Shown here: positions 1-16,152 of the stretch, one piece after another | Numbering within the stretch: position 1 is the stretch's first letter | Layout of the letters: every line of letters begins with the position of its first letter | NCBI GenBank assembly: GCA_038851755.1 | Contig: JAWCKR010000020.1 | Location: 1-23,036, forward strand | Reading direction: 5' to 3' | Source: Candidatus Hadarchaeales archaeon | GTDB lineage: Archaea > Hadarchaeota > Hadarchaeia > Hadarchaeales > WYZ-LMO6 | DNA: 23,036 nucleotides | The notes under the pieces: model-generated | Database searches by the model: none | The model's input: the letters and a program-made list of their open reading frames with translations, nothing else | Told to the model about the DNA's origin: nothing | Translations under genes and position numbers: made by a program

Positions 1-882
1 AACGAGCCGGGGGGCTTCCCCGACGGCTACATCTGCGACTTCATGCAGGCGGAGAGGGACCTCCCCGCCCGCAGGTTCCTGGAGGTGGCCCAGGAGGACG
101 AGGAGGAGGCCCTGAAGTACTCCCGCGCCATGCAGGAGGGAATAGGGGGAATAGCGGCCGTGATAGACAACGTGCTGTGGCTGGGCTTCTACATGAGCGG
201 GGGAATAGGCTTCTCCAACACCGTGGCCTCGGCCGCTTACTCCGAGGTGATGAACGAGATCTCCATGGAGCTCATAGAGCTCTCCCACCGCTACATGCAG
301 GGGGTCAGGAAGGTACCCATCCGCTGGGACACCGTGAGGACGATGGTGAACTCAATCGTGCAGTACGCCATGGAGAGCTACGAGAAGTTCCCCACCCTCA
401 CGGAGTTCCACTGGGGAGGGGCCCACAGGGTCTCCGTGATAGGCTCCATAGCCGCTTCATCGGCTGCCATGCTCACGGGGAGCTCCACCATGGGATTGAT
501 GGCAGCCCACTACGCCGTGGCCTTCGCCATGAAAGAGGGCTGGCTCAGGACGGGATGGGCGGGGCAGGAGGTCCAGGACCACATAGGCCTTCCCTACCTG
601 TGCAGCTTCAGACCTGAGGAGGGAAACCTGACGGAGCTGAGGGGGCTGAACTACCCCATGCAGTCCTACACCGCTGCCCACGGGGCCATCAGGGGTGCCG
701 CTAACTACGCGGCCATGATAGGGAGGGGAAGTTCCTGGTGTCTCAGCCCCATCGTGAAGGTGGCCTTCGCCGATCCCCACCTGGTGTTCGACTTCAAGCA
801 ACCGAAGCTCTGCATCGCCAAGGCGGGGATAAGGCAGTTCATGCCGGCCGGGGAGAGGGACCCGGTGCTTCCGCCCCACTGA
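1..882 (+). CDS. mcrA: Methyl/alkyl-coenzyme M reductase alpha subunit, divergent Acr-type (5'-truncated by window edge)
   Basis: Frame 1 is open from base 1: NEPGGFPDG, WLGFYMSGGIGF, HWGGAHR, RTGWAGQEVQDHIG, LRGLNYP, VKVAFADPHLVFDF, FMPAGERD. These align in order with McrA motifs NEPGG, WLGSYMSGGVGF, HFGGSQR, RLGFFGYDLQDQCG, RGPNYP, KVAFAD, F-PAGER. Confidence 0.96.
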   Translation, partial: NEPGGFPDGYICDFMQAERDLPARRFLEVAQEDEEEALKYSRAMQEGIGGIAAVIDNVLWLGFYMSGGIGFSNTVASAAYSEVMNEISMELIELSHRYMQGVRKVPIRWDTVRTMVNSIVQYAMESYEKFPTLTEFHWGGAHRVSVIGSIAASSAAMLTGSSTMGLMAAHYAVAFAMKEGWLRTGWAGQEVQDHIGLPYLCSFRPEEGNLTELRGLNYPMQSYTAAHGAIRGAANYAAMIGRGSSWCLSPIVKVAFADPHLVFDFKQPKLCIAKAGIRQFMPAGERDPVLPPH

Positions 883-891
883 GGTGCGAGC

Positions 892-1479
892 ATGGGCAAG
901 AGCCTGCCACCCCTTAAGGAGATGTATCCCAAGTTCGCGGAGGAGTTCGAGAGGACCAAACCTCCGCCAGTCCTGGAGAAAGTCACCCCGGAAGCCCTTC
1001 CTCCCCCGAGCATGTGTCTCCCTCGCCCTGACGGTTGGTGGAGGCAGCCTCCTTACTCCAAGTGGATTCAGGACAGGGGGAGGGAACCAACGGCTTACGA
1101 GCTCTTCATGGATTTCATCATAGGAAGGGCGATTTCCAGTCCGAAAGCCATGGAGCTGGCGAGTTCTGCGCCCACCCGCCTAATCGTGTATGAGATCGAG
1201 CATCCCCAGAGGGGCACCGAGTTCGTGAGGATGTTCCTGAACCCTACTCAGGTGGTGGAGGGACCTCCTGAGGAGGAGCCCGACCTGTGGATCAAGATGG
1301 GGTACTACGACTTCGTTCCTGTTCTGGGGGGGGAGATAAGTGTCTTCAACGCGGTGTACGAGGGTAGGGCCAACATCATAGGCAACACCACGGCGGGACT
1401 CGACCAGTACGACGTGATGACGGCCATCTTGGGGTTCGAGATTCCTCGCCCGCGGTGCTGGCCCCGGGGACATCCCTGA
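892..1479 (+). CDS. SCP2 (sterol carrier protein-2)-like domain protein with Pro/Trp-rich N-terminal extension
   Basis: RBS GAGGTG (881-886) overlaps the mcrA stop. C-terminal PDLWIKMGYYDFVPVLGGEISVFNAVYEGRANIIGN matches the SCP2 pattern (A/P)D-x-x-I...F..L.G.......A...G...I.G. Confidence 0.7.
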   Translation: MGKSLPPLKEMYPKFAEEFERTKPPPVLEKVTPEALPPPSMCLPRPDGWWRQPPYSKWIQDRGREPTAYELFMDFIIGRAISSPKAMELASSAPTRLIVYEIEHPQRGTEFVRMFLNPTQVVEGPPEEEPDLWIKMGYYDFVPVLGGEISVFNAVYEGRANIIGNTTAGLDQYDVMTAILGFEIPRPRCWPRGHP

Positions 1480-1480
1480 T

Positions 1481-2929
1481 TCAGGTCCCCCCGGTCTTCA
1501 GCCTTTCCCTCATCTTCTTGTACTCTATGAGTTTGGAGTAGGCCATTCCTGCATCCTCGGGGGTGAAGTAGACGGGTATACGGTGCTTCCTGAGGAGTTT
1601 GACGGGCCTGGATTTGTCAAGGGGTTTGAGGGCCACGGCGAAGACCGTCTTCCCCCTCCGGTTAAGGGCTATCAACCTTTTGATGAGGGGCAGCTGGACC
1701 TCTCTAACATAAACCTTCCTCAGCTCCCTGTCGAGGAACCTGGTGGCGTAGGCATCCAGCCCCCCGAGGACAATCAGCCCACCAGCCTCCCACTTTTCTA
1801 TCACCTTGAGGATTTTGAACTCCAAGGAGGGATCCAGCTCGGCCACCGTGTCTATCGGATTCCCCTTGCTCCAGTAGGGGGGCATAAAGGAGTTCATCTC
1901 CTCTAGGAGGTGGGGAGGGGGCGGGGCGACCTCCACCAGGTCTTCCCGACAGGCGTCGGTGGCGGCCACCCCCCAGCCTCCTCCCCTCGTGAGGATGATC
2001 ACTTGGTTGTTCTTGGGGAGGGGCTGTTCGAGGGCCATGGCCACCTTCAGCAGCTCCTCCGTGCTCTCTACCTCCACCACTCCGGCTTGCCTGAAGACCC
2101 CGCTGTACACCTGCCTGGACCCGGAGAGGGAGCCCGTGTGGGATTTGGCAGCCCTGCTCCCAGCCTGGGTCTTTCCCACCTTGAGGGCCACGATAGGCTT
2201 CGTCGGGCTCGTCTTCCTCGCCACCTCAAAGAACTTCCTCCCGTTTTTTACCCCCTCTATGTAGGTGAGGATGACCCTGGTGGACTCTCTCTCCCTCAGG
2301 AGCTCTATCAGATCCTCGCACCTGAGGAAGGCCTCGTTTCCCGTGCTCACGAAGACGTCGAAACCAATGTGGTAGTAGGTTCCGCGATCCAGGAGCTGGG
2401 TCCCCAGGTTCCCGCTCTGGGAGAGGAAAGAGACATTTCCCTTCAGGGGCTTCACGGAGGCCATGAGGGCGGAGAGGCTGGAGGTGGCCGAGAATACTCC
2501 CATGCAGTTCGGTCCCACGAAGGGCAGGCCCTCCTCCTCTGCGGTTCTCACCAGTTCTTCCTCCATTTCCTCACCCTCTCTTCCCGTTTCTCTGAAGCCC
2601 GCAGAGATTATCACCGCTGACTTCACCCCCCTCTCCGCGCACTCCCTGAAGAGGGAGGGAACGGTTTTGGCCGGGGTGACGATGAGGGCTAGGTCGGTCT
2701 CCTCCGGAACCTTCGGGTAAGCCTTGAGCCCCATGAGGGTTTCCTCGTTTGGGTTCACGGGGTAGACCTCACCCTTGAAGCCCCCCTCCACCACGTGCTT
2801 CAGGATGATGCTTCCCCACTTGATGGGGGAGCGGGAGGCTCCAATCACTGCCACCGACTTCGGGTCTAAGAGATAGCGCAGGTTTTCGAGAGTTCTTTTG
2901 GAGAGCTCTCCCGACCTCCTTGAGGTCAT
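1481..2929 (-). CDS. acdA: Acyl-CoA synthetase (ADP/NDP-forming), alpha subunit
   Basis: PKSVAVIGAS, YPVNP, GPNCMG, SQSG, STGNEA, KVGKT..G.RAAKSHTGSL (phospho-His) and NPID motifs; no ATP-grasp beta domain; GGGTGA RBS upstream. Confidence 0.93.
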   Translation of the reverse strand: MTSRRSGELSKRTLENLRYLLDPKSVAVIGASRSPIKWGSIILKHVVEGGFKGEVYPVNPNEETLMGLKAYPKVPEETDLALIVTPAKTVPSLFRECAERGVKSAVIISAGFRETGREGEEMEEELVRTAEEEGLPFVGPNCMGVFSATSSLSALMASVKPLKGNVSFLSQSGNLGTQLLDRGTYYHIGFDVFVSTGNEAFLRCEDLIELLRERESTRVILTYIEGVKNGRKFFEVARKTSPTKPIVALKVGKTQAGSRAAKSHTGSLSGSRQVYSGVFRQAGVVEVESTEELLKVAMALEQPLPKNNQVIILTRGGGWGVAATDACREDLVEVAPPPPHLLEEMNSFMPPYWSKGNPIDTVAELDPSLEFKILKVIEKWEAGGLIVLGGLDAYATRFLDRELRKVYVREVQLPLIKRLIALNRRGKTVFAVALKPLDKSRPVKLLRKHRIPVYFTPEDAGMAYSKLIEYKKMRERLKTGGT

Positions 2930-2952
2930 CTTTTCACCCTTTCCCCGACCTC

Positions 2953-2993
2953 TTTATAAATCCTCCGAGCCACGTGAAACTCAATCTTTTTAA
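2953..2993. promoter_or_regulatory. Divergent TATA boxes for acdA (-) and the SCP2/unknown gene pair (+)
   Basis: TTTATAAA at 2953-2960 and TTTTTAA at 2987-2993, each about 21-23 nt from its start codon in an AT-rich gap. Confidence 0.6.
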
Positions 2994-3014
2994 GACCTTC
3001 TACCATATTTTTTT

Positions 3015-3485
3015 GTGCCCCTGGTACTGACGAGGGAATGGTTCGAGAGCATCAAGGAAGCTTGGAACTCCGACCCCTCGAACATAAAGAGCCTGGAAGG
3101 GGCGAGCGAAAGGATCCTCTGGACGGTGGAAGAGCTCCCGCTCTCCAAGCTTTCCCCGGAGATGGAGAAATCCATCTTGGAGGGCGGGATGATCGACGAG
3201 GCTCTCTTCAAGAAGGCCAAGGAGACGGACAGGGTGAATCTCCTGCTGGGGTGGGAGGGGGGAAAGCTGGTGGACTTCAGGCCCGCGAGGGAAGGAGAGG
3301 CCCATACGGCGATGATGAAAGGGAAGTATTCCGTCTTCGAAAAGATAAAGACGGGCGAGGACTTCCTGTGGGCCACGATGGACAGGGAGATAGAGTTCAG
3401 GGGGAGGATGTTCGAGTTCACGAGGAGATTGGACGGATACACCAAGTTCACGCTCATCATGGTATCAAAAACGGATCTGGTGTGA
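3015..3485 (+). CDS. SCP2-like domain protein
   Basis: EWFESIKEAWNSD N-terminus and AHTAMMKGKYSVFEKIKTGEDFLWATMDREIEFRGRM resemble archaeal SCP2 proteins; GTG start placed for a leaderless transcript. Confidence 0.62.
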   Translation: MPLVLTREWFESIKEAWNSDPSNIKSLEGASERILWTVEELPLSKLSPEMEKSILEGGMIDEALFKKAKETDRVNLLLGWEGGKLVDFRPAREGEAHTAMMKGKYSVFEKIKTGEDFLWATMDREIEFRGRMFEFTRRLDGYTKFTLIMVSKTDLV

Positions 3486-3495
3486 GGTGAGAAGG

Positions 3496-4968
3496 ATGGA
3501 AACGATGGAGGAAAGGAGCGCCAAGCAGAAGGCGGAGTGGGAGGAATGGATCAGGCACATGGGACTGGACAAGATTTGGCAGTATCTCAGCTCCATCAAC
3601 CCCTTCCCTGGTCAGACTCCCCTCAGCCTCGAGATTTTCTCCACCATGCCCGTTTGGAGGCACACCTTCAAGCATCTGGGCATGACCCCTGAGAGATGGC
3701 AGAGGCTTAAGTACGAGAACTTCGTGGAATGGTCCTACCGCATAGACCAGGCGGTGGAGACCTCGAACAGGCTGTTGAAGAACCCACCTTCTAGGGAGGA
3801 GCTCTACCACATGGACAACCTGTGCTACCTGAGCCACCCCCCGGCCTACCTCTGCAGGTCTGACGTGGGAAGGACCACCTGTCAGATGCTTTACGGTAAG
3901 TACGCCACCGTGGAGTACGTGCATGTGGATGACTTTACCCGTGAAGCTTACTGGATCCTGGGATACCACAACGAGGACGGCTTGCCCGTTCACCGGTGGC
4001 TCTTGGGTGCCTCCAAGGACATCTCCCAGTACTTCGACGAGGAGGACGAGAAGTGCTTCCTCACCACCACGGACAAATGGACAGGGGCCCCCAACAAGGA
4101 GGAGCTGGACGACAGGCTGAACCGCAGGCACCTCAGGACGGGGGTGAAGGTGAGGGACGTGCCCAGGTACTACTGGGACCCCTACGACTGGGGGATGGGG
4201 GTGAGGGACGTGATCATGGACATGCGCACCGAGCTCTTCTCCAAGTGGCTCCACGCCACCCTTTACATCTCCGGAGTCTCGGCTTACATCAGCACCATCG
4301 CCCAGAACGCCCTGATGAGCAGCGAGTTCTTCCTCTACGTCTACTACGGTCTGAACACGGCCGCGCTGGGGGTCAGGTACAACCTCTTCTCCTATGTGCC
4401 CCTGCCGCCCATCCTCAGGACCCTGCTGGGCCTCACCCAGGAGACCTTCGTGAAGAGGATGAGCGAGCTCTTCCTCGGCGGTTACAACACCATCCATAAG
4501 TACGCCTGCAGCGAGAAGAAGATCCCCAACCTCTTCAAGATCAGGAAGTTCCACTGGGAGCACGGCCAATTTTATCCCCATGTGAGAGGAATCCTTCCGC
4601 CCTTCGTCCTGGCGAGGGCCATTCCGCCCTCGCTGGAGCCCATCAACCTCAGGCAGTACCTGGAAACTCCCCCGAGCAAGGAGTTCCTCGAGGTGCTGGA
4701 GAGTGAGGGAGGCCTGAACAAGGAGACGGGTCAGTTGCCCTCCATAGAGGAAACGGGAAGGTTCCACTTCCTTTTCGATCCATCCGTGGAGCCCCTGCAG
4801 GCCAAGGACTTCCCGCCCTTCGACCCCAACAAGGGCCAGATCTGGCCCTTCGACATCACTAGGGAGAAGGTGGAGATCATGGTGGAGGAGGGCTACGACG
4901 GCTCTGGGAAGAACCTCGAGTATTACAGCAAGCTGGCGGACAAGAAGATGGGGAAGAAGGTGGACTGA
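3496..4968 (+). CDS. Hypothetical soluble protein, ~490 aa, Trp/Tyr/His-rich
   Basis: Long ORF with strong C/G third-position bias. RBS GAGGTGA (3484-3490) overlaps the upstream stop, favouring ATG 3496 over GTG 3487. No family recognised and no evident TM segment. Confidence 0.88.
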   Translation: METMEERSAKQKAEWEEWIRHMGLDKIWQYLSSINPFPGQTPLSLEIFSTMPVWRHTFKHLGMTPERWQRLKYENFVEWSYRIDQAVETSNRLLKNPPSREELYHMDNLCYLSHPPAYLCRSDVGRTTCQMLYGKYATVEYVHVDDFTREAYWILGYHNEDGLPVHRWLLGASKDISQYFDEEDEKCFLTTTDKWTGAPNKEELDDRLNRRHLRTGVKVRDVPRYYWDPYDWGMGVRDVIMDMRTELFSKWLHATLYISGVSAYISTIAQNALMSSEFFLYVYYGLNTAALGVRYNLFSYVPLPPILRTLLGLTQETFVKRMSELFLGGYNTIHKYACSEKKIPNLFKIRKFHWEHGQFYPHVRGILPPFVLARAIPPSLEPINLRQYLETPPSKEFLEVLESEGGLNKETGQLPSIEETGRFHFLFDPSVEPLQAKDFPPFDPNKGQIWPFDITREKVEIMVEEGYDGSGKNLEYYSKLADKKMGKKVD

Positions 4969-4983
4969 GTCCCTCAGGCTCGC

Positions 4984-5550
4984 CTAGTCTTTTAGGAGCT
5001 GGGAGACCTCCATCATGGCCGAGGAAACTCTCATGGCCAAGGGGATGCTCCCATCGGTCCTTATCAGCTGCTTGAAGAAGGCTTCGGTGGGGTCTCTCTC
5101 CCCCAGGAACACCTCTATCATGGCCTGGGTATAGCCTTTCACGGTGAGGTCGGGCTTCTCCAGCAGTCCTGATCCTCCGGACAGTCTTCCATCCTTTATC
5201 TGGAAGTGGCCCCTCATAGGGCTGTCTATGGCTTCCATGTTCACCGCGACGTTCCCCGCCCTCTGGAGGGCTTCCTTCACGTCAGGGTTCCTCTCCGCCA
5301 GTATGCTTATCCCCTCCCAGAGGATGTCCATGAACCTAGCGGAGGCTTCCGGATCTTCCTTTACGAACTGAGTGACGTTCACCTCCTTCAATCTCTTCGC
5401 CAGCCTGGGCACGAGGTCGGGAACCAGCTCCAGGAGTTTGGAAACCCCGAACTCCTTTATCCCGTCTAGGAGAGGAAGGAGATTCCCCTTCAGCTGGTCA
5501 AGGGGGAGTTGGAAGGCTTCTTCAATGGTTTTCCTCAGATCCTCTCCCAC
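4984..5550 (-). CDS. SCP2-like domain protein with N-terminal helical domain (~188 aa)
   Basis: C-terminal HFQIKDGRLSGGSGLLEKPDLTVKG...VFLGERDPTEAFFKQLIRTDGSIPLAM is SCP2-like. Start revised to GTG 5550, about 22 nt after TTATAAA (5579-5573); the ORF-track extension to 5991 overlaps aor. Confidence 0.78.
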   Translation of the reverse strand: MGEDLRKTIEEAFQLPLDQLKGNLLPLLDGIKEFGVSKLLELVPDLVPRLAKRLKEVNVTQFVKEDPEASARFMDILWEGISILAERNPDVKEALQRAGNVAVNMEAIDSPMRGHFQIKDGRLSGGSGLLEKPDLTVKGYTQAMIEVFLGERDPTEAFFKQLIRTDGSIPLAMRVSSAMMEVSQLLKD

Positions 5551-5572
5551 GCCTTCTCTTTTGGGATGGAGA

Positions 5573-5637
5573 TTTATAACCTTTTTGGGAGCCGCGCGAA
5601 AAAAAAGAGACAAGTTTTTAGCGCGGGGAGAGGGTGA
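5573..5637. promoter_or_regulatory. Divergent promoter region (SCP2 / aor) with inverted repeat
   Basis: TTATAAA (-, 5579-5573), TTTTTA (+, 5615-5620), RBS GGGTGA (5632-5637); dyad CGCGCGAAAAA (5593-5603) / TTTTTAGCGCG (5615-5625). Confidence 0.55.
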
Positions 5638-5643
5638 TGGATA

Positions 5644-7587
5644 GTGAACTGGTTCGGTTACGCGGGTTCGATTCTGAGAGTAGACCTGAGCAGGGGAGAG
5701 GTGGAGAAGGAGGAACTCACAGAGGACCTTGTGAAGAGGTTCTTGGGGGGACTGGGGATAAACCTGAAGCTTTACAGGAGGGAGGCCTCCCCCCTTTCCG
5801 ATCCCCTTTCTCCCTCCAACCCCCTGGTGCTCGGAGTGGGCCCGCTGGTGGGAACGGAAGTGCCTGGAGCCACCAAGATGGTGGCCACCACGAAGTCTCC
5901 CCTCTTTTCTAGGGGTGGAAAGCACTTCGTGGACGGTGCCGTGTGCGGTGGCAGGCTGGGGGCGCAGCTGAAGAGGGCGGGGTACGACCATGTGGTGATC
6001 GTGGGAAGATCGGAGAGGCCGGTCTATTTGAGCCTGGAGAGGGGCCGTGCGGAGCTCCTGGAAGCCTCACACCTCTGGGGAAAGGACACCTACGAGACCA
6101 CGGACCTGTTGCTCAGGGAGCATCCTGGAGCAGGGGTTGCGGTGATCGGAAGGGCGGGTGAGAAGGGAGTGGTGCATGCCATGGCCATAGTGGACAAGGT
6201 GGCCACCTTGGGCAGATTCGGGGTTGGTGCGGTGATGGGTTCCAAGAACCTGAAGGCGATAGTGGCGAAGGGTGAAGGGAAGGTAGCCGTGGCTAGAGGG
6301 GAGGAGCTCTCCGAGCTGGTGGGGAAGTGGAGGGAGGACATAGAGAGGAACCCCCTCCTGCCCCAGTGGAGGGTGCTGGGCATCATGGCGGGCTGGCCCG
6401 CCCATTCCCCTCTGGTCAGGGAGGGTGTGTGGGAATACTCAAAGTGGAACGAGCTCTACGGCCCGGAGAGATGGGTGGAGTTCCGGGGGGGGAAGAACTC
6501 CTCCTGCTGGGGTTGCCCCATGGGCTGCAGGGTGGACTTTCACATAAAAGAAGGGAGGCACGCGGGGCTCTCCACCTTCACGGGGTCCTACATGCTTCCG
6601 GCGAGGGTGGGGCAAAGGCTGGAGCTGGAGGACCCCAGGGATGCCGTGGCCCTCCTTGACCTGTGCAACAGGGAGGGGATGTGCTACTTCACCACCAGCC
6701 AGCTGGTGAACTGGGTCACCAGGCTCTCCAAAGAGGGAAAGCTGAAGGAGAGGCTGGGGAGGGACTTTGAGACTTATCTCAGGCTCTTCGGGGAGATCGC
6801 GGGAAGGGAGGGCTTCGGAGGGATTCTCTCGGACGGGTGGTACCCGGCTTCGGAGAAGCTTGGCGCGGATCCGGATGAGTTCGAGGAGGGCACGGGCCTT
6901 TTCAGGGGGGCCGACGCCATCCAGGATGCCAGGTTCACGAGGCTCCATCCCCAGGCCTTCTCCCACCTCACCTCGCCCAGGCCTCACCACGGTGGGACCC
7001 AGTCCCTTTACACCGTTCCGATGGTGGAGCCACAGGTGCTGAGGGAGGTGGACGCCAGGGACATGGGTCTTTCGGAGGAGGAGCTGAACAGGGTGTTCGG
7101 GGGGCCCATGAAGTTCAACCCGGCGAGGTACGCCAGGTACGCGGAGGACAGGATGGCGGTCTACAACAGCCTGGGCACCTGCATCGTGCACGCCCTGTGG
7201 GGCTTCCTGGGAGTGAGGTACCTCAACCTGAAGCTGGCGGCGGAGCTGTATTCCCTGGCCACCGGGAGGGAGCTGGGGGTGGCGGAACTCCGAAGGACGG
7301 GAGAAAGGATCTTCACCTTCTGGAAGATGGTGAACGCGGAGGAGGGACTGGGGAAGGAGGACTACAGATGCTCCAAGATCTGGCTGAAGCCCAGGAGGAC
7401 ACCCGAGGGGGAGGTGGTTCTGAGGGACTACTATGGGGAGGTGGTTCTGTCCGGGGAGGACATGGAAAACCTCCTGAGGGATTACTACCACGAGAGAGGC
7501 TGGGATGAGTCCACGGGCCTTCCCACCCCTGAGAAGCTGAGGGAACTCGGGCTGGGGGAGGAAGGCTTCAGGCTTCCCTCCCCCTGA
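5644..7587 (+). CDS. aor: Tungsten-type aldehyde:ferredoxin oxidoreductase family protein (divergent)
   Basis: GYAGSILRVDLS, FLGGLG, KSP, LKRAGYD, GRFGVGAVMGSKNLKAI, CWGCPMGC plus NSLGTC ([4Fe-4S] ligands), YYHERGWDESTGLPT..KLRELGL. Confidence 0.93.
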   Translation: MNWFGYAGSILRVDLSRGEVEKEELTEDLVKRFLGGLGINLKLYRREASPLSDPLSPSNPLVLGVGPLVGTEVPGATKMVATTKSPLFSRGGKHFVDGAVCGGRLGAQLKRAGYDHVVIVGRSERPVYLSLERGRAELLEASHLWGKDTYETTDLLLREHPGAGVAVIGRAGEKGVVHAMAIVDKVATLGRFGVGAVMGSKNLKAIVAKGEGKVAVARGEELSELVGKWREDIERNPLLPQWRVLGIMAGWPAHSPLVREGVWEYSKWNELYGPERWVEFRGGKNSSCWGCPMGCRVDFHIKEGRHAGLSTFTGSYMLPARVGQRLELEDPRDAVALLDLCNREGMCYFTTSQLVNWVTRLSKEGKLKERLGRDFETYLRLFGEIAGREGFGGILSDGWYPASEKLGADPDEFEEGTGLFRGADAIQDARFTRLHPQAFSHLTSPRPHHGGTQSLYTVPMVEPQVLREVDARDMGLSEEELNRVFGGPMKFNPARYARYAEDRMAVYNSLGTCIVHALWGFLGVRYLNLKLAAELYSLATGRELGVAELRRTGERIFTFWKMVNAEEGLGKEDYRCSKIWLKPRRTPEGEVVLRDYYGEVVLSGEDMENLLRDYYHERGWDESTGLPTPEKLRELGLGEEGFRLPSP

Positions 7588-7598
7588 GGGTCCGCCAT

Positions 7599-8045
7599 TC
7601 AGGAAGGCTCTATGAGCTTGAAGACATCCATGGGCACGGTGGAGCGCATGATGGCGTTGGCGATGAGGGAGATGATCTCGAAGTCCATCTTCTCTGCCCC
7701 CTCCACCACTTGTATCTTTCCCTCCACCACCGCGTTGGAGAGTTCCTCCTGTCCGGAAATCACCCTCTTCCAGGTTTCCCACTCCCCCTCCAGCACCACA
7801 TCCGCTTTCAGGGGAGTGTTGGCCACTTCGGTTTCGGTCTTACCCTCCGCGATGTGGATGCGCATGTAGGCATCCTCCATTCCCTTCTCCTTGAAGGAGG
7901 GGGGAAGCCTTATCACGTTTAAGAGCGAAAAGTCCTTCCCCTTGGTCTTCTCTTGGAACTGTGGGTCCGCTTCTATGTTGCTGAGCAAGACGTTGAGAAA
8001 GCTCTTCATTCCCGCTAGAAAGAGTTCGGCCTCCAATCCAGGCAT
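7599..8045 (-). CDS. SCP2-like domain protein
   Basis: IHIAEGK...ADVVLEGEWETWKRVISGQEELSNAVVEGKIQV is a typical SCP2 C-terminal pattern; TTAAATAT (8073-8066) about 20 nt upstream. Confidence 0.8.
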   Translation of the reverse strand: MPGLEAELFLAGMKSFLNVLLSNIEADPQFQEKTKGKDFSLLNVIRLPPSFKEKGMEDAYMRIHIAEGKTETEVANTPLKADVVLEGEWETWKRVISGQEELSNAVVEGKIQVVEGAEKMDFEIISLIANAIMRSTVPMDVFKLIEPS

Positions 8046-8110
8046 CCTTTATTACGGAAGAGACAATATTTAACCCTACCGTTGAGGGTGTAGAACTGGA
8101 TGAGGTGAGT

Positions 8111-8683
8111 TCAGCCCTTTTTCTTGGAGGGCTGGGTCTCTTCTACAATCTTCCTTGCCGCGTTCTTTGCGGCTTCCAGCAGGGGCTGGTTGCAGAGGGA
8201 CACCGGACAGGAGGAGATGGGAATCCTCACGATTTTTTGCAGGATGGTTGCTACCACGGGGCCGCACACTATGGCCTTGGCCCCCTCCTGCTCGGCGTTG
8301 AGGGCAGCGACGATGGCGTCCTCGATGCTGGAGGCCCCGTATCCCTTGATCTTGATTTTTAGGTTGCCGGCGCTCACGTGGGAGGTGGTGAGGGCGTCGA
8401 GGGAAGAGCGTGAGGCGATGAGGGCGATGAAGGGTTCACCCCCCTGGGAACTTTCCAGGCTCTTCAGGGTCCTCAGGATGTCCCTGAGGGTGGAGAGCCT
8501 GGGATTGGGCCTGTGCCCGGAGATGATCTTGTAGAGGGAGCTTTCGGAGACGCCGGAGAGCTTGCTGAACTCCTTCATGTCCAGATGGAACTCCTTCAGC
8601 ACCCTCTTCAGGGTCTCCCTGAACTTCTCGTCGGACTCCAGGGCGGAGTTCAGGACCTCCTCCCACTTCTGGAAACCCACCAT
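8111..8683 (-). CDS. XRE/Cro-family HTH transcriptional regulator with C-terminal alpha/beta ligand-binding-like domain
   Basis: MKEFSKLSGVSESSLYKIISGHRPNPRLSTLRDI is an HTH_3 pattern; C-terminal EDAIVAALNAEQEGAKAIVCGPVV resembles an archaeal regulator family. Confidence 0.88.
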   Translation of the reverse strand: MVGFQKWEEVLNSALESDEKFRETLKRVLKEFHLDMKEFSKLSGVSESSLYKIISGHRPNPRLSTLRDILRTLKSLESSQGGEPFIALIASRSSLDALTTSHVSAGNLKIKIKGYGASSIEDAIVAALNAEQEGAKAIVCGPVVATILQKIVRIPISSCPVSLCNQPLLEAAKNAARKIVEETQPSKKKG

Positions 8684-8691
8684 CGGCTAAC

Positions 8692-8726
8692 TTTCCTCTT
8701 TGTCCATAAAAAGCACACTATTTTAG
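8692..8726 (+). promoter_or_regulatory. Putative operator plus TATA upstream of the symporter, overlapping the regulator's own promoter
   Basis: TTTCCTCTTTGTCCATAAAAAGCACAC (8692-8718) matches the reverse complement of 12678-12704 at 22/27 positions; it is followed by TATTTTAG. Confidence 0.6.
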
Positions 8727-8759
8727 AGGGGAGGGTGGAGAGAGCCGGGAGGGAGAACC

Positions 8760-10109
8760 TTGGAGATAGGCTGGTCGCCGGTCTTTGACTTCGTCCTCCT
8801 CAGCCTTCTCCTCCTTGTCGCCACCATCCTTCGCCTGAGGCTGAGGGTTCTCCAGAGGCTGCTCATGCCAAACGCTCTGGTGGCAGGTTTCCTGGGGTTT
8901 CTCTTGGCCCAGGTCTTCCGGGTGGTTTCCTTCCACCACCTGGAGGACATGATCTATCACCTCCTCAACCTGACCTTCGCCGCGCTGGCGCTGGGGATGG
9001 TCACGAGGGGGAGGAGCTACGGGCAGGCGGCCAGCACGGGCATCCTCATGTCCTTCGTCTTCTCCCTCCAGTTGCTGGTGGGCTTTCTCCTGACCTTTTT
9101 CCTGATGGCCACCTTCTGCCCGGATCTCTTCCCCACCTTCGGCTCCCTCATGGCCGTGGGTTACGCCTCCGGCCCTGGTCAGGCCTTCTCCTTCGGCTCT
9201 TCCTGGGAAGGAAGGGGGTTCGCCCACGGGGGAGAGGTGGGTTTGATCTTCGGGGCGGTGGGCTTCCTCTGGGCCTACGGGGTGGGGACGGTCTGGCTCA
9301 ACTGGGGGGTCAGGAGGGGAAGGGCAGTCCTTCTGAGGGACCTCCGGGCGGTGCCGGAGGAGGTCTGGACGGGCATCCTCCCCAGGCGCAGGAGGAAAGC
9401 TTTCGGGGAGACCGTTTCCTCCTCGGAGGCGGTGGACACCCTCAGCCTCCAGGTGGCCCTCTGCGGTTTGGTCTACGCCTTTGCTTACTTGGTGGTGAGG
9501 CTCCTTTCCCTGAGCTCCGAAACCGCCTGGGGGGCCACCTTCGTGGTCACGGTGATGGTGGGGATGGCGGTCAGGAAGGTCATGGAGAGGACGAGGGTCG
9601 ACCACCTGATCTCCCCGGGGGTTCAGAGGCATGTAGCGGGGGTATGCGTGGATTACGCCGTGGCGGCCTCCGTCGCCGCCATCTCCCTGCCCGCCCTCAG
9701 GATGTACGCCCTCCCCCTCATCCTGATTGCCCTGGCAGGCGGGTTGGTCACGGTGCTGGCCTTCCTCTGGCTGCCCCACAGGGTGTGGAGGGACTACAGG
9801 TTCGAGAGGACGCTCGTCACCTACGGCACCCTCACGGGGACGATGGACTCCGGCATAGCCCTCTGCAGGGTGGTTGACCCGGAGCTCCGCACCCCAGCGG
9901 TGGAGGACTACGTGAGGGGCATGCCTCTGATGTTCCTTCTCATCCTCCCCCTCTATGGTCTTCTCTTCCTTCCCCTCAGCGGTTATGGTTCGGAGAGGGC
10001 CTTCCCCTTCTACTCCCTTACCCTCGTGGGTCTCCTCCTCTCCCTCCCCCTCTTCCTCCTGATGTGGAGGAGGATGGGCCTCTGGGTGCCAAGGCGCTCT
10101 CAGAGGTAG
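8760..10109 (+). CDS. Sodium/glutamate symporter (GltS/ESS) family transporter
   Basis: About 12 hydrophobic segments; LQRLLMPNALVAGFLG, GYASGPGQA..FG, YGTLTGTMDSGIAL.RVVDP re-entrant-loop motifs; TTG start after GGAGGGAG. Confidence 0.85.
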   Translation: MEIGWSPVFDFVLLSLLLLVATILRLRLRVLQRLLMPNALVAGFLGFLLAQVFRVVSFHHLEDMIYHLLNLTFAALALGMVTRGRSYGQAASTGILMSFVFSLQLLVGFLLTFFLMATFCPDLFPTFGSLMAVGYASGPGQAFSFGSSWEGRGFAHGGEVGLIFGAVGFLWAYGVGTVWLNWGVRRGRAVLLRDLRAVPEEVWTGILPRRRRKAFGETVSSSEAVDTLSLQVALCGLVYAFAYLVVRLLSLSSETAWGATFVVTVMVGMAVRKVMERTRVDHLISPGVQRHVAGVCVDYAVAASVAAISLPALRMYALPLILIALAGGLVTVLAFLWLPHRVWRDYRFERTLVTYGTLTGTMDSGIALCRVVDPELRTPAVEDYVRGMPLMFLLILPLYGLLFLPLSGYGSERAFPFYSLTLVGLLLSLPLFLLMWRRMGLWVPRRSQR

Positions 10110-10858
10110 GGCACTTCCTCCCTGAGGAGGTCCACCACTTCTTTCCTGAGCCTTACCAGCTCCCTACTCAGCTTGTCTCGCGGGCGGGGGAGTTCCACCC
10201 GGAGCACCTCCTTCACCCTGGCGGGGCGGGAAGTGAGCACAATCACCCTGTCGGAGAGGTACACCGCCTCCTCAACGTTGTGGGTCACGAAGAGGATGGT
10301 CTTTTTCACCTCCCACCAGATCTTGGTGAGGTCCTGGTGGAGAATCCAGCGGGTCTGCGCGTCCAGGTTGGCGAAGGGTTCATCCATCAAGAGCAGCTCC
10401 GGGTCCACGGCGAGGGCTCTGGCTATGGCCACCCTCTGCTTCATCCCTCCCGAGAGCTGATGGGGGTAGCAGTGTTCGAAACCCGCCAGACCCACCATTT
10501 CCACCAGTTCCTTCACCCTTTCCCCACCCTCCATGCCCCTCACCTCTCTCCCGAACTCCACGTTCTCCCTGACCGTCCTCCAGGGAAAGAGAGAGTCTTC
10601 CTGGAAAACGAAGCCCAGGCGGTGTCTGGAAGGGTCGGGGGGTCTCCCGTCTATGGTGACCTTACCCGAGGAAGGTCTCTCCAGACCCCCGACCAGCTTG
10701 AGGAGGGTGGTCTTCCCGCACCCCGAGGGACCCACCACGGAGACGAACTCTCCCTCCCTCACCCCAAAGGAGACTCCTCTGAGGACCTCCAGTCTTCCTT
10801 CCCCCGTGGTGAAGCTCTTGTGCAGGTCCTCCACCTTCACCTTGGTCTTCACGGGCAC
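10100..10858 (-). CDS. ABC transporter ATP-binding protein, NitT/TauT/Ssu family
   Basis: GPSGCGKT, VFQE..LFPWRTV, YPHQLSGGMKQR, LLLMDEPF, FVTH, V.LPRPRD. Confidence 0.95.
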   Translation of the reverse strand: MPVKTKVKVEDLHKSFTTGEGRLEVLRGVSFGVREGEFVSVVGPSGCGKTTLLKLVGGLERPSSGKVTIDGRPPDPSRHRLGFVFQEDSLFPWRTVRENVEFGREVRGMEGGERVKELVEMVGLAGFEHCYPHQLSGGMKQRVAIARALAVDPELLLMDEPFANLDAQTRWILHQDLTKIWWEVKKTILFVTHNVEEAVYLSDRVIVLTSRPARVKEVLRVELPRPRDKLSRELVRLRKEVVDLLREEVPYL

Positions 10859-10867
10859 GGTTCCACC

Positions 10868-11656
10868 TCACAGGGAGACCTCTTTCCTCCACACGAAGAG
10901 ACGCCTTTCCGTCTGGAGGAGGATTTCGTTCATGAGGAGTCCTACGATGCCTATGGCGATCATCCCTGCCACGATCATGTCCACCCTCAGGAGCTCGGAG
11001 TACTTCAGGATGAGCCTGCCCAGACCCACATTCTCGCCACCTATCATTTCCGCCGCCACGATGCACATCCAGCCGACTCCCAGCCCCACCCTCATTCCGG
11101 AGGTGATTTCGGGCAGGGCGCTGGGTATCACCACTTTCTTCACCGTGGTCCTGTTTTTGGCCCCGAAGCTCTTGGAGACCTCCACCAGCGTGGGGTTGGT
11201 TCTCTTGATGCCGCTCATGGTGTTGATGAGGATGGGGAAGAAAGCACCCAGCCATATCACGAAGAGGTAGCGCCAGTATCCGGAGAGGAGGAGGATGACC
11301 AGAGGTATCCAGGCGAGGGGAGGGATGAAGCGAAGGGGCTCCAGCACGGGCTTGGAGGAACGGTATACTCCCTCCCTCAGCCCCATCAGGATGCCCAAGG
11401 GTATGGCGGTGAGGCAGGCCAGGGCGAACCCCCCCAGTACCCTGAGGAGGCTGTGGAGGGCGTGTTCGTGTAGCCTGATTCCTTCCACGTCCCCCCTGGT
11501 CAGGAGGGTGGAAAAGGAGCGGAGCACCTCCACAGGACCTGGGAAGAAGGAGGAGCGGGTGATTCTGGAAGAGAGCTCCCAGAGGAGGAGGACGGCTGCC
11601 AGCAGGAGGGAGGCATACAGCACCTCCCTGGAGCGCAGGGTCTTCCAGACTTTCAT
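10868..11656 (-). CDS. ABC transporter permease, NitT/TauT/Ssu family
   Basis: SLLRVLGGF, IPPLAWIP, FFPILINT..G, KSFGA...VVIPSALP.I..GMR, W..IVAAEM. Confidence 0.94.
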   Translation of the reverse strand: MKVWKTLRSREVLYASLLLAAVLLLWELSSRITRSSFFPGPVEVLRSFSTLLTRGDVEGIRLHEHALHSLLRVLGGFALACLTAIPLGILMGLREGVYRSSKPVLEPLRFIPPLAWIPLVILLLSGYWRYLFVIWLGAFFPILINTMSGIKRTNPTLVEVSKSFGAKNRTTVKKVVIPSALPEITSGMRVGLGVGWMCIVAAEMIGGENVGLGRLILKYSELLRVDMIVAGMIAIGIVGLLMNEILLQTERRLFVWRKEVSL

Positions 11657-11663
11657 TCAAACC

Positions 11664-12647
11664 CTACTTCAGGGCTTCCTCTAAAAGGGTGAGGTCGAGA
11701 GCGCCCTCCACGAAGGCATCCACGTTTTCCACTCCCGTGATGGTCCCGGTCTCTATGAGAAGCCTGGCGAAGGCTTTGATGCTCTCCACGTCGGGGTTGA
11801 CGTTCCAGACCATCCTCTTCCAGGACTCCTGAACCACGGCCGCGGGTTTGCCCGTGCGGGAGGAGAAAATCCCCATGGCCCGGTTTTCGTTCTCCTGCAC
11901 CAGCTGCATGGCCTTCACATGGGCCTTGACGATGGAGAGGGCGAGCTTCCTGTCCTCCCTGAGGAGCTTCCCTGAGACGTAGAGGACGCAGCACTGGTGG
12001 TTGGGGAGGATGTCGTGGGAGGTGTAGACCACCTTTCCCGTGCCGTTCACCACCGCCTCGGCGCAGAAGGGCTCCCAGGCTATGTACCCGTCTATCTCCC
12101 CCTTCTCCAGGGCGAGGGGGAGGGTGGAGGGACCGGAGTAGTGCTTGCGGTTGAAGGTGATCCCCAGCTGGTTCTCCACCATGGAGAGCATGGCGTTCTG
12201 GATGGTGCCAAGGCCGGGGGTCCCCACCGTCTTACCGTTCAGGCCCTCCACGTTTTCGATCTCTGGACGGGCCACCAGCGCCGAACCCTCCAGGTTGGCC
12301 GAAGCCACGATCTTGAAGTCGGCCCCCTGCGAGAGGGCCCTGAGGGCAGGAACCGCTCCCACGTATCCGGCATCCAAGCCGCCGGAAACGAACTCGGTCA
12401 TCTGCGCCGGACCGTTGACGTATTCGAGGTACCTGAACCTGAACCCCGGTCCAGCCTCCTCCTCAAAGAGTTCCAGCTCCCTTCCCACGAAACACCCTAT
12501 CTGGTGGATATCACCCACCAGGTAGCCCATCCTGACGGTGGTGACGGCCTCTCTGCCGGCCTGGTACCCCAGACGGTAGCTGGCGTAGGAGGCCAGGGAG
12601 AGAACGACCAGGAAGGAGAGGAGGATACCCAGCATCTTGCCCGTCAT
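11664..12647 (-). CDS. ABC transporter substrate-binding protein, sulfonate/nitrate/taurine-like
   Basis: N-terminal membrane anchor; VRMGYL, GLDAGYVG..P, L.GKTVGTPG.GTIQ, GEIDGYIAWEP, HQCCVL. Confidence 0.9.
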   Translation of the reverse strand: MTGKMLGILLSFLVVLSLASYASYRLGYQAGREAVTTVRMGYLVGDIHQIGCFVGRELELFEEEAGPGFRFRYLEYVNGPAQMTEFVSGGLDAGYVGAVPALRALSQGADFKIVASANLEGSALVARPEIENVEGLNGKTVGTPGLGTIQNAMLSMVENQLGITFNRKHYSGPSTLPLALEKGEIDGYIAWEPFCAEAVVNGTGKVVYTSHDILPNHQCCVLYVSGKLLREDRKLALSIVKAHVKAMQLVQENENRAMGIFSSRTGKPAAVVQESWKRMVWNVNPDVESIKAFARLLIETGTITGVENVDAFVEGALDLTLLEEALK

Positions 12648-12668
12648 CTTCCACCCTCCTCCCCCCCG

Positions 12669-12747
12669 TATTTAAATGTGTTGTTTTTTTGGACAAAAGG
12701 GAAAAAAGAGCGGATTTGGCGAGGCTTCTTTGGAAAGAAGGGAAAAA
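12669..12747 (-). promoter_or_regulatory. TATA box and two copies of a putative operator upstream of the ABC operon
   Basis: ATTTAAATA (12677-12669); motif 12678-12704; 12688-12706 is repeated at 12729-12747 (17/19 identical, 41 bp apart). Confidence 0.6.
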
Positions 12748-12780
12748 GCCGGGGTGCAAATTGGTACCGACTTAAAGCTG

Positions 12781-12808
12781 GAAATACTTAAATACACAAA
12801 AGTAATAC
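12781..12808 (+). promoter_or_regulatory. Putative NikR-type operator overlapping the TATA box of the cbiM/nikM operon
   Basis: GAAATAC-N14-GTAATAC, a 28-bp imperfect dyad enclosing TTAAATA (12788-12794); same geometry as NikR operators (GTATGA-N16-TCATAC). Confidence 0.5.
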
Positions 12809-12815
12809 TGCACCG

Positions 12816-13451
12816 ATGCACATACCGGATGGCTTTTTGACCCTCGAGGTGTGGGCCCCCCTCTGGGCCCTGGCCGCGGGCGCCCTGGCCTTTTCCACCT
12901 GGCGCGTGAACAGGAGGCTGGAGGACAGGCACGTGCCCCTGCTGGGGGTGCTCGCGGCCTTCGTCTTCGCCGTTCAGATGCTCAACGTGCCCGTGGCGGG
13001 GGGCACCAGCGGGCATGTGGTGGGAGGGGTGCTCATCGCCCTCTTCGTGGGCCCCCTGGCGGGCTCCCTGGTGATGGGCTCCATCCTGGCCGTGCAGGCC
13101 CTCTTCTTCCAGGACGGGGGCATAACAGCTCTGGGGGCCAACGTGGTGAACATGGGGCTGATAGGAACCATCCTGGGATACTGGCTCTACCGGCTGGTAT
13201 CGGGGGCCGTTGGAGGAAGAGAAGGGAGGCTGGCGGGGGCAGGAGTGGCGGGGTGGGTGACGATCGTGCTGGCGTCCGTCGCCTGCTCCCTGGAGCTGGC
13301 GGCCTCGGGCACCTCCCCGCTCGGGGTGGTCCTCCCCGCCATGGTGGGGTATCACGTGGTGATAGGGGTGGTGGAGGCCGTGGCCACGATGGCGGTGGTC
13401 GGCTTCGTCTCCCGGGTGAGGCCCGACCTCCTCGAACTGCCCAAGCTGTAG
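12816..13451 (+). CDS. cbiM: ECF-type Ni/Co transporter substrate component NikM/CbiM
   Basis: N-terminal MHIPDG, GTSGH..GG, QALFFQDGGITALGAN, H..IG..EA. Confidence 0.95.
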   Translation: MHIPDGFLTLEVWAPLWALAAGALAFSTWRVNRRLEDRHVPLLGVLAAFVFAVQMLNVPVAGGTSGHVVGGVLIALFVGPLAGSLVMGSILAVQALFFQDGGITALGANVVNMGLIGTILGYWLYRLVSGAVGGREGRLAGAGVAGWVTIVLASVACSLELAASGTSPLGVVLPAMVGYHVVIGVVEAVATMAVVGFVSRVRPDLLELPKL

Positions 13452-13459
13452 GTGAGGGG

Positions 13460-16151: not shown

Positions 16152-16152
16152 G

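What the first reader, a model, noticed from the sequence alone, without database searches (positions are those of the whole stretch)
1481..7587. Gene set fitting the unresolved alkyl-CoM to acyl-CoA step
Established: how alkyl-CoM is converted to acyl-CoA for beta-oxidation in Acr-bearing archaea is unresolved; routes via aldehyde and fatty acid have been proposed. Seen: an Aor-family enzyme (aldehyde to acid), an ADP-forming acyl-CoA synthetase alpha (acid to/from acyl-CoA) and one large unknown protein lie just downstream of acr. Inference: they form the downstream pathway. Caveats: the genes are in separate transcription units, the Acd beta subunit is not in the window, and both families are often multi-copy in thermophilic archaea.
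Basis: inference. Interest (0 to 1): 0.7.

Follow-up and report, generated by a model that had tools for sequence, protein, structure and literature searches.

The report
Lipid-carrier and oxidoreductase genes beside alkane reductase
Next to the alkane-activating enzyme genes of a hot-spring archaeon lies a conserved set of fatty-chain carrier proteins, an undescribed protein family and an unusual tungsten-type oxidoreductase that occur almost only in archaea of this lifestyle, giving concrete candidates for a missing step of anaerobic oil degradation.

Summary
Window 1-8683 encodes acrA (3' half), an SCP2-domain protein (u195), Acd alpha, an SCP2-fold protein (scpA156), the 493-aa unknown (u493), a Pfam SCP2 protein (scpB), an Aor, a probable SCP2 protein (scpC148) and an HTH regulator.

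How tightly each gene follows acr, strongest first:
- **u195 and u493:** found in exactly the 7 of 66 Hadarchaeota genomes that hold acrB. They sit inside acr operons in Hadarchaeota and in Helarchaeota-like metagenome contigs, and beside acr genes in Bathyarchaeota BA2 and Methanolliviera. u493 has no Pfam family and no clear fold match.
- **Aor:** belongs to a well-supported clade in which the canonical AOR 'EYE' motif is replaced. Its named members come only from lineages where Acr is known. It was not found in one acr-bearing Hadarchaeon or in two of three Methanolliviera genomes.
- **Acd alpha:** not acr-specific. Relatives at about 50% identity occur in acr-lacking Hadarchaeota.

A second locus (canonical Aor, three SCP2 genes, FadD-like ligase) competes for the aldehyde-to-acyl-CoA route.

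Verdict: partly supported. This is a real, conserved long-chain-alkane module, but which step it serves is unproven. This scan had already noted the u493 family on other DNA (e1-2072343).

The parts
1..882 (+). 3' half of acrA2, the second alkyl-CoM reductase alpha gene (293 aa; the contig starts inside the gene)
   Evidence: PF02249 82.5 bits and TIGR03256 positions 274-547. 84% identical to the other acrA on C12. L028 shows it follows acrA1-u203-acrB-acrG-u523 in a relative.
892..1479 (+). u195: Acr-linked SCP2-domain protein, 9 bases after acrA2
   Evidence: Family profile A2 matches SCP2 chains (4uei_A E 2.4e-6; 9 SCP2-type chains at E 0.0035 or lower). Present in the same 7 of 66 genomes as acrB, two copies wherever two acrA genes were counted. 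Next to acrA or acrB in BA2, Methanolliviera and Helarchaeota-like contigs.
1481..2929 (-). Acd alpha: ADP-forming acyl-CoA synthetase alpha subunit, convergent with acrA2-u195
   Evidence: Pfam and NCBIfam hits. Best solved relatives are 2csu_A and 4xyl_A. Orthologs at 71% or more occur only in the own family; relatives at about 50% occur in acr-lacking genomes.
3015..3485 (+). scpA156: SCP2-fold protein, directly upstream of u493
   Evidence: No sequence hit. Model pLDDT 88.1. Foldseek gave 22 PDB matches at E 0.001 or lower, every listed one SCP2-type. The pairing with the u493 family is also seen in BA2 and in L022.
3487..4968 (+). u493: member of an undescribed family restricted to archaea with Acr (start at 3487 GTG or 3496 ATG)
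   Evidence: 36 clusters among 5.8 billion proteins. 75 profile hits among 1.84 billion representatives. No Pfam hit. Model pLDDT 91.5 without a clear PDB match. Six full or near-full copies plus one fragment in the own genome.
4984..5550 (-). scpB: SCP2 protein, convergent with u493 and divergent from aor (GTG start at 5550 is inferred)
   Evidence: PF02036 34.9 bits. Follows u493-family genes in Hadarchaeota and in three Methanolliviera loci, and lies about 0.5 kb beyond acrA in the BA2 locus. Start read.
5644..7587 (+). Aor of a divergent clade ('LPAR' type) of the tungsten AOR family
   Evidence: AFOR_N and AFOR_C. Cys motif aligned to 1aor. 'GPEYE' replaced by 'GSYML...LPARV'. Clade of 29 rows with support 100.
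7599..8045 (-). scpC148: probable SCP2-like protein, convergent with aor
   Evidence: SCP2 is the top but sub-threshold hit (Pfam E 0.02; PDB profile E 0.012). Syntenic in L015, L017 and L034.
8111..8683 (-). reg190: HTH_3 regulator with a PrpR_N-like sensor domain, same strand as scpC148
   Evidence: PF01381 33 bits; PF06506 27.9 bits, just below its cut-off. Syntenic in L015, L017 and L034.

Best explanation
This is one arm of a conserved gene module that travels with the long-chain type of alkyl-CoM reductase. It handles very hydrophobic C1-functionalised chains. Four small SCP2-fold proteins and the large u493 protein most likely bind the alkyl chain. They would pass it between Acr and the enzymes that follow, in the way UbiJ/UbiT or the SCP2 domain of alkylsulfatases present hydrophobic substrates. 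The divergent tungsten oxidoreductase is the best candidate in this locus for an oxidation step on the Acr product: either long-chain aldehyde, or the thioether carbon of alkyl-CoM itself. Acd alpha is at most an optional acid/acyl-CoA link. It would need the single stand-alone beta subunit encoded elsewhere, beside other u493 paralogs. Shown: gene identities, SCP2 folds, conserved synteny, and co-occurrence with acr. Inferred: ligand binding, the order of steps, and every catalytic assignment.
For: 1. u493 and u195 each occur in 7 of 66 Hadarchaeota genomes, the same 7 that hold acrB. One of these (G011) lies in a different family whose other 45 genomes lack all three. 2. Paralogs sit inside the operon acrA1-u203-acrB-acrG-u523, which runs straight into acrA2-u195 in a relative (L028). 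3. The same two families sit in acrA - short u493 form - double-ABC ATPase - u195-like - acrB - acrG operons on low-GC metagenome contigs: 4 of 80 loci complete or nearly so, plus one partial. They also lie next to acrA or acrB in BA2 and Methanolliviera. 4. A u493-family gene is followed by scpB in Hadarchaeota and in three Methanolliviera loci; in BA2, scpB lies about 0.5 kb beyond acrA in the same locus. An Aor-family gene follows in Hadarchaeota and in 2 Methanolliviera loci. 5. Other u493 paralogs lie beside a FadD-like ligase plus enoyl-CoA hydratase, beside acyl-CoA dehydrogenases, and beside the only stand-alone Acd beta. 6. Pfam SCP2 genes number 5-8 per genome in the acr-bearing family. 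Only 3 of 59 acr-lacking genomes hold any. 7. The Aor clade is distinct: support 100, with named members only from Hadarchaeales, BA2, Methanolliviera, a Halobacteriota MAG, a Promethearchaeota/Lokiarchaeota MAG and Helarchaeota. In BA2's order it is found in 1 of 81 sampled genomes, the one with acrB. 8. Print: the step is called unknown (passages of PMC11297162, PMC10322722 and PMC10811742). 'Hydrocarbon-carrier proteins' for long-chain Acr were proposed without candidates (passage of PMC9118554).
Against: There are no expression, binding or activity data. The two runs that hold the locus have flat depth and look like DNA. The published expression table of a cultured relative lists no aor, acd or hypothetical genes. 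The clade Aor was not found in acr-bearing G011 (79% complete) or in 2 of 3 Methanolliviera genomes, so it is not universal among Acr organisms. Only 2 of 80 short-form u493 loci have any Aor nearby, and neither is of the clade. Acd alpha has relatives of about 50% identity in acr-lacking genomes. The whole alkane gene set is reported to move by horizontal transfer between these lineages (passage of PMC10811742). Shared distribution therefore shows membership of the package, not the step. The SCP2 resemblance of the u493 core is weak (Z 4.3 or lower) and has no profile support. A second locus with a canonical Aor, three SCP2 genes and a FadD-like ligase could carry the aldehyde-to-acyl-CoA route instead. 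The published model of the relative lists adhE and two highly expressed acsl genes.
Confidence: 0.5

Rival explanations
1. One reading: an unknown step releases a long-chain aldehyde from alkyl-CoM, this Aor oxidises it to the fatty acid, and Acd (alpha here, beta elsewhere) makes acyl-CoA at the cost of ATP. The unknown protein catalyses the first step.
For: The adjacency of acr, acd, u493 and aor is conserved across the family. Aor has been proposed for this step in print (passages of PMC10811742 and PMC10322722). The only stand-alone Acd beta lies between two u493 paralogs.
Against: Acd alpha is not acr-specific. In this Aor the position aligned to Glu313 of the P. furiosus enzyme is Met, within a clade-wide motif change. 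The genome has a canonical Aor with three SCP2 genes and a FadD-like ligase elsewhere. u493 has no cofactor motif and no invariant Cys.
Confidence: 0.2
2. u195, u493 and the SCP2 proteins serve Acr itself. They would act as hydrocarbon carriers or extra subunits that bring insoluble alkanes to the enzyme or stabilise it. Aor and Acd would be neighbours only through family-level synteny.
For: u195-type genes lie between acrA and acrB, and u493-type genes lie directly after acrG or acrA, in two phyla. One u195-type gene accompanies each acrA. Carriers for long-chain Acr were postulated in print (PMC9118554).
Against: Most u493 paralogs are not next to acr: 75 of 80 short-form loci, and 4 of the 6 full or near-full own copies. 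Instead they lie next to beta-oxidation-type genes and acyl-CoA ligases. The u493-scpB-Aor order recurs in Methanolliviera.
Confidence: 0.2
3. There is no functional coupling. The genes were co-inherited on a horizontally transferred island, and Aor and Acd work in peptide or aldehyde fermentation as in Thermococcales.
For: Both families are multi-copy. The genes form separate transcription units. Horizontal transfer of the alkane gene set is reported.
Against: The Aor paralog has no counterpart above 39% identity in 59 acr-lacking Hadarchaeota, whereas the canonical paralog has 43-50% relatives in 36 of them. Four SCP2-fold genes are interleaved with the enzymes.
Confidence: 0.1

Closest known systems
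Pyrococcus furiosus aldehyde:ferredoxin oxidoreductase (PDB 1aor) and related tungsten AORs (9mqx, 9g7j)
   Same: Same two Pfam domains. The N-terminal and central parts align (E 5.7e-54 to 1aor). The C-x2-C-x3-C motif and the fourth Cys that hold the 4Fe-4S cluster are present.
   Different: AFOR_C scores only 178 bits, against 480 and 458 for the two canonical paralogs of the same genome. 'GPEYE' is replaced by 'GSYML' followed by a clade-wide 'LPARVGQRLE'. 'NRGGCH' is replaced by 'PRPHHGG'. Residues 408-496 do not align to solved AORs. That Glu313 is catalytic is recalled, not from a call.
ADP-forming acyl-CoA synthetase (Candidatus Korarchaeum cryptofilum ACD, PDB 4xyl; Pyrococcus horikoshii 2csu)
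   Same: Full-length alpha-subunit match (E 6.4e-89 and 6.9e-94) with the same domain order.
   Different: Below the equivalog cut-off for acetate-CoA ligase alpha (431.7 against 567 bits). The beta subunit is unlinked. Substrate range is unknown.
SCP2 / non-specific lipid-transfer proteins (Thermus thermophilus 2cx7, mosquito SCP-2 with bound palmitate 1pz4) and SCP2 helper domains (UbiJ 6h6p, alkylsulfatase SdsA1 2cfu)
   Same: scpA156 has this fold. scpB and u195 match by sequence. UbiJ and the alkylsulfatase domain are precedents for an SCP2 module that presents a hydrophobic substrate to an enzyme.
   Different: These are stand-alone proteins in at least four divergent versions within one 8-kb locus. 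One version (u195) has a 60-residue N-terminal extension and a fixed place in acr operons. No ligand is known.
Aor route proposed for Candidatus Ethanoperedens and Candidatus Cerberiarchaeum
   Same: An Aor-family enzyme is invoked for alkyl-CoM to acyl-CoA conversion (passages of PMC10811742 and PMC10322722).
   Different: Those proposals rest on expression or on gene counts. They do not single out a clade or note its altered motif, the u493 family or the SCP2 genes. No paper held both 'sterol carrier' and 'alkyl-coenzyme M'. In the 15 rows listed, no paper on these archaea contained 'SCP2' or 'sterol carrier'; the one paper holding both an SCP2 term and one of the lineage names (an Asgard lipid-transfer preprint, PMC12139934) does not concern Acr.

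Membership tests
Tungsten AOR family (Pfam AFOR_N + AFOR_C) | Both Pfam domains above the gathering score | tested here: met
   220.5 bits (cut-off 29.8) and 178 bits (cut-off 27).
Tungsten AOR family | Four Cys ligands of the 4Fe-4S cluster | tested here: met
   CWGCPMGC aligns to CYACPIGC of 1aor, and NSLGTC aligns to DSAGLC.
Canonical aldehyde-oxidising AOR (NCBIfam NF007354 equivalog) | Equivalog score, and the conserved Glu of the 'EYE' motif (Glu313 in 1aor numbering) | tested here: not met
   206.5 bits against a cut-off of 868. The aligned residue is Met; both canonical paralogs of the same genome keep GPEYE.
ADP-forming acyl-CoA synthetase, alpha subunit | CoA-binding, flavodoxin-like ligase and Ligase_CoA_2 domains over the full length | tested here: met
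   Full-length alignment to 2csu_A and 4xyl_A.
Acetate-CoA ligase (ADP-forming) alpha, TIGR02717 equivalog | Score above the curated cut-off | tested here: not met
   431.7 bits against 567.15.
ADP-forming acyl-CoA synthetase holoenzyme | A partner beta (ATP-grasp_5) subunit | tested here: inconclusive
   None in the window. One stand-alone beta at C14:197-862 and one fused form at C6. Pairing not testable.
SCP2 (PF02036) | Pfam domain above the gathering score | tested here: met
   scpB 34.9 bits against 21.3.
SCP2 fold (scpA156) | Fold match to solved SCP2 proteins | tested here: met
   Foldseek E 7.7e-8, probability 1.00, TM 0.66/0.77 to 2cx7_B. There is no sequence match.
SCP2 (u195 family) | Sequence-profile match to SCP2 domains | tested here: met
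   Profile A2 against PDB: 4uei_A E 2.4e-6 over positions 126-181. Pfam alone finds nothing for u195, and 13.3 bits for its paralog u203.
SCP2 (scpC148) | Sequence or fold match | tested here: inconclusive
   Pfam E 0.02 at 15.7 bits, below the cut-off. PDB profile E 0.012.
SCP2 fold (core of u493) | Fold match | tested here: inconclusive
   The top 7 VIA-align rows are SCP2 proteins, but Z is only 3.3-4.3. Foldseek found nothing. hhalign probability 0.2%.
Alkyl/methyl-CoM reductase alpha | MCR_alpha C-terminal domain | tested here: met
   82.5 bits. That it is an alkane-type Acr rests on 74-76% identity to the BA2 gene and on print. No tree was made here.

The most novel reading that the evidence does not exclude
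The 'LPAR'-type tungsten enzyme is not an aldehyde oxidoreductase. It would be the missing alkyl-CoM-oxidising enzyme. It would hydroxylate the thioether alpha-carbon, so that a hemithioacetal falls apart into CoM-SH and a fatty aldehyde or acid. u195 and u493 would take long-chain alkyl-CoM from Acr and hand it over through their hydrophobic cavities.
Probability: 0.15. Interest if true: 0.92.

Novelty: categorically new. Interest (0 to 1): 0.72.

Why it matters
How archaea turn alkyl-CoM into acyl-CoA is the main gap in the Acr pathway of anaerobic oil and alkane degradation. This work narrows an open list to a few testable genes:
- two protein families (u493 and u195) that follow acr across four lineages and are unannotated in the published models;
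- one Aor clade with a changed active site.

It also gives the first concrete candidates for the 'hydrocarbon-carrier proteins' postulated for long-chain Acr.

The label 'categorically new' applies to the u493 family and to the acr-linked carrier set. Aor, Acd and SCP2 are themselves variants of known families.

Tried and rejected
**Expression**
- Of the four runs found, X1 and X2 cover window 1-20000 at flat depth (about 800-2500) and look like DNA of a close strain.
- X3, an RNA library, gave only 8 listed pieces of 50-253 bases at depth 2.5-14. These included pieces on acdA, u493 and scpB.
- None of this shows transcription.

**Binding of scpA156 to u493**

**Other searches that gave nothing**
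- The protein atlas gave nothing usable for u493 (best score 0.88).
- Foldseek against PDB gave nothing for u493.
- hhalign of u493 against the u195 and scpA families, and of scpA against u195 and scpC, gave nothing.
- A shared operator in the divergent intergenic regions was looked for by eye only. Only TATA-like boxes were seen.
- The 'internal TAA' flagged in the BA2 and Methanolliviera Aor orthologs is the normal stop codon.

**Slips and re-runs**
- My first scpB query was translated one base out of frame. Its hits reflected DNA conservation. It was redone in frame.

**Literature**
- Searches for prior description were.
- I read passages only, not whole papers.
- Not read: the PDF supplements of PMC11297162, and supplementary tables S5 of PMC10811742 and 7 of PMC10322722 (Aor copies and expression). 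They may bear on expression.

Full report
**What is in the window.**
The window is contig C20 of a 1.25-Mb genome in 26 contigs, 93% complete. Relatives are titled Hadarchaeota or Hadesarchaea in public records.

Third-position G+C (0.75-0.87 in real frames; 0.67 over the over-long scpB frame) together with family hits gives this map of the first 8.7 kb:

| Gene | Coordinates | Strand |
|---|---|---|
| acrA, 3' half | 1-882 | + |
| u195 | 892-1479 | + |
| Acd alpha | 1481-2929 | - |
| scpA156 | 3015-3485 | + |
| u493 | 3487-4968 | + |
| scpB | 4984-5550 | - |
| Aor | 5644-7587 | + |
| scpC148 | 7599-8045 | - |
| HTH/PrpR_N-like regulator | 8111-8683 | - |

**The small proteins are lipid-carrier folds.**
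- scpB matches Pfam SCP2 (34.9 bits).
- The u195 family profile matches solved SCP2 domains (E 2.4e-6).
- scpA156 has no sequence match. It folds with pLDDT 88 into an SCP2 fold: Foldseek E 7.7e-8, with 22 matches at E 0.001 or lower, every listed one SCP2-type.
- scpC148 is only suggestive.

The genome holds six Pfam-detectable SCP2 domains besides these divergent ones. In the phylum, the six genomes of the acr-bearing family have 5-8 each. Only 3 of 59 acr-lacking genomes have any.

**The window continues an acr operon.**
The genome has two acrA genes but one acrB. On contig C12 the order is acrA1 - u203 (a u195 paralog, 55% identical) - acrB - acrG - u523 (a u493 paralog, 45%), all on one strand. 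In a related genome the same five genes run directly into acrA2 - u195 and then a convergent acd (L028). C12 and the window are therefore almost certainly neighbours, split by the assembler at the acrA repeat.

The supplement of the paper on the cultured relative Ca. Melinoarchaeum numbers acrA, acrB, acrG and acrA as genes 1, 3, 4 and 6 of one contig and lists FPKM of 294-669 for them. Genes 2 and 5, at the positions of u203 and u523, are not listed.

**The unknown protein family.**
- u493 has 36 clusters of relatives among 5.8 billion proteins. The named ones come from Bathyarchaeota BA2, Hadarchaeales and Methanoliparum.
- A pattern scan of one genome for each of 185,579 species found it only in Hadarchaeota/Hadesarchaea, BA2, Methanolliviera and one 'uncultured archaeon' MAG (24 loci).
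- A profile search of 1.84 billion representatives found 75 proteins. About 50 of these are a shorter form of 380-430 aa that shares the core motifs. Its named members are Helarchaeota.
- None of the 10 family members scanned has a Pfam domain; one further low-ranking row (P0219) is a phosphopantetheine-binding repeat protein and looks spurious.
- The model is confident (pLDDT 91.5, pTM 0.91) but has no Foldseek match in PDB. The exhaustive aligner puts seven SCP2 proteins on top, but only at Z 3.3-4.3. Profile comparison does not support the link. The SCP2-like core is therefore a lead, not a result.
- There is no invariant Cys. Conserved His, Arg and acidic residues are shared by the long and short forms.

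**Profiles against acr.**
In 66 Hadarchaeota genomes, acrB is in 7: all six of the window's family, plus G011 in another family. u493 relatives are in the same 7. u195 relatives are also in the same 7, with two copies wherever two acrA genes were counted and one in G011, right after its acrA.

Outside the phylum:
- BA2 has scpA-like, u493-like, a divergent u195-like gene, acrA and scpB within 5.5 kb.
- Methanolliviera has acrA followed by u195-like, and u195-like next to acrB. It has u493-like followed by scpB in three loci.
- Of 80 metagenome loci of the short form (G+C 26-48%), four have the order acrA - short form - double-ABC ATPase - u195-like - acrB - acrG, complete or cut by a contig end. 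A fifth shows a fragment of it.

These two families are the tightest companions of acr in the window.

**The Aor.**
The genome has three full-length Aor genes. The window's copy has orthologs of 69-93% identity in all five other genomes of its family. It has nothing above 39% in the 59 acr-lacking genomes or in G011. By contrast, the canonical paralog on C4 has 43-50% relatives in 36 acr-lacking genomes.

In the large protein collection the window's Aor heads a group of about 30 clusters at 47-86% identity. The next hit drops to 42%. A FastTree of 81 of the 119 full-length hits was built from the first 62 rows plus every third of the rest. It gives a clade of 29 rows with support 100. Named members are Hadarchaeales, BA2, Methanolliviera, a Halobacteriota MAG, a Promethearchaeota/Lokiarchaeota MAG and two Helarchaeota. 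In a sample of 81 genomes of BA2's order, only BA2 has a clade-level hit and only BA2 has acrB.

The clade keeps the iron-sulfur Cys ligands. It replaces 'GPEYE' with 'G-S/A/F/H-Y/H-x-LPARV', and 'NRGGCH' with 'PRPHHGG'. The residue aligned to Glu313 of the P. furiosus enzyme is Met. The catalytic role of that Glu is my recollection.

Against a universal role: no clade member was found in G011 or in two of three Methanolliviera genomes. These are incomplete MAGs. Short-form u493 loci almost never have an Aor nearby (2 of 80, neither of the clade).

**Acd.**
The alpha subunit is a bona fide ADP-forming acyl-CoA synthetase alpha. It is one of six such loci plus one weak hit. Orthologs at 71% or more are confined to the family. 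Relatives at 49-50% occur in three acr-lacking Hadarchaeota, and at 51% on a different contig of BA2. Methanolliviera has nothing above 45%. The one point in its favour is that the only stand-alone beta subunit lies between two u493 paralogs on C14.

**Context of the other paralogs and a rival locus.**
Other u493 copies lie beside acyl-CoA dehydrogenases and a FixC-like flavoprotein (C5). One lies directly after a FadD-like ligase, with an enoyl-CoA hydratase and a MacB-type ABC system nearby (C16). Short-form loci recur with a FAD oxidoreductase (9 loci), enoyl-CoA hydratase (6), a BcrAD/BadFG-type ATPase (6), thiolase (5) and alpha/beta hydrolase (5).

On C4 a canonical Aor lies with three SCP2 genes, a FadD-like ligase and a dienoyl-CoA-reductase-like flavoprotein. 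That locus fits 'aldehyde to acid to acyl-CoA' at least as well as the window does. The published expression table of the relative lists adhE and two acsl genes at FPKM 180-2183, and no aor or acd rows.

**Reading.**
The evidence shows a conserved, horizontally mobile gene set for handling long hydrophobic chains, and this window is one arm of it. The most economical mechanism has three parts. SCP2-type proteins and u493 bind the chain and shuttle it between Acr, a special tungsten oxidoreductase and acyl-CoA-forming enzymes. The oxidoreductase acts on the Acr product. Acd is peripheral.

The literature calls the step unknown. It has proposed Aor only generically, and 'hydrocarbon-carrier proteins' only as an idea. 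No paper held both 'sterol carrier' and 'alkyl-coenzyme M'. In the rows listed, the only paper combining an SCP2 term with one of these lineages is an Asgard lipid-transfer preprint that does not concern Acr. An earlier follow-up of this scan reached the same view of the u493 family on other DNA.

No expression, binding or activity evidence could be obtained here. The step assignment therefore stays inference.

Noticed in passing
G000 C12:34728-40958 joined to window 1-1479: Two acrA genes (84% identical over the shared half) but a single acrB and acrG. The contig break falls in the acrA repeat. Two alpha subunits may share one beta/gamma pair.
   Followed up: partly
G000 C4:60031-68658 (L130): Rival locus: a dienoyl-CoA-reductase-like flavoprotein, a canonical Aor, an MFS transporter, three tandem SCP2 genes and a FadD-like AMP-forming ligase.
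   Followed up: partly
G000 C2:35664-43258 (L131): The third Aor has its own polyferredoxin. Next to it are a double-ABC ATPase resembling MCR activation component A2, two CoA-transferase genes and a FAD-linked oxidase.
   Followed up: no
L097, L107, L110, L111 (metagenome contigs): Low-GC acr operons with the order acrA - short u493 form - double-ABC ATPase (563 aa) - u195-like (169 aa) - acrB - acrG.
   Followed up: partly
window 11664-15194: An NMT1-like binding protein, two further minus-strand ORFs of unknown family (10100-10858 and 10868-11656), and a CbiM(PDGLE)/CbiQ/ABC-ATPase metal-uptake set lie about 10 kb from acr. The latter set is a possible nickel or cobalt supply for F430 or corrinoids.
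   Followed up: no
window 8760-10109 (+): A 449-aa ORF with coding-type G+C pattern and no family hit.
   Followed up: no
window 8111-8683 (-): A regulator with a Cro/C1 HTH and a PrpR_N-like sensor domain, conserved beside the Aor/scpC genes in three relatives. It is a possible small-molecule-responsive regulator of the locus.
   Followed up: partly
G051 (acr-lacking Hadarchaeon) C61:2061-3446 and C61:8295-8588: The closest acr-lacking relative of Acd alpha (49%) shares a contig with an SCP2 gene. The same genome has the best non-family Aor hit (37%). This may be a fatty-acid-handling set that does not depend on acr.
   Followed up: no
runs X1 and X2 on window 1-20000: The libraries are labelled metatranscriptomic but give flat depth across genes and intergenic DNA, so they behave as DNA.
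   Followed up: yes
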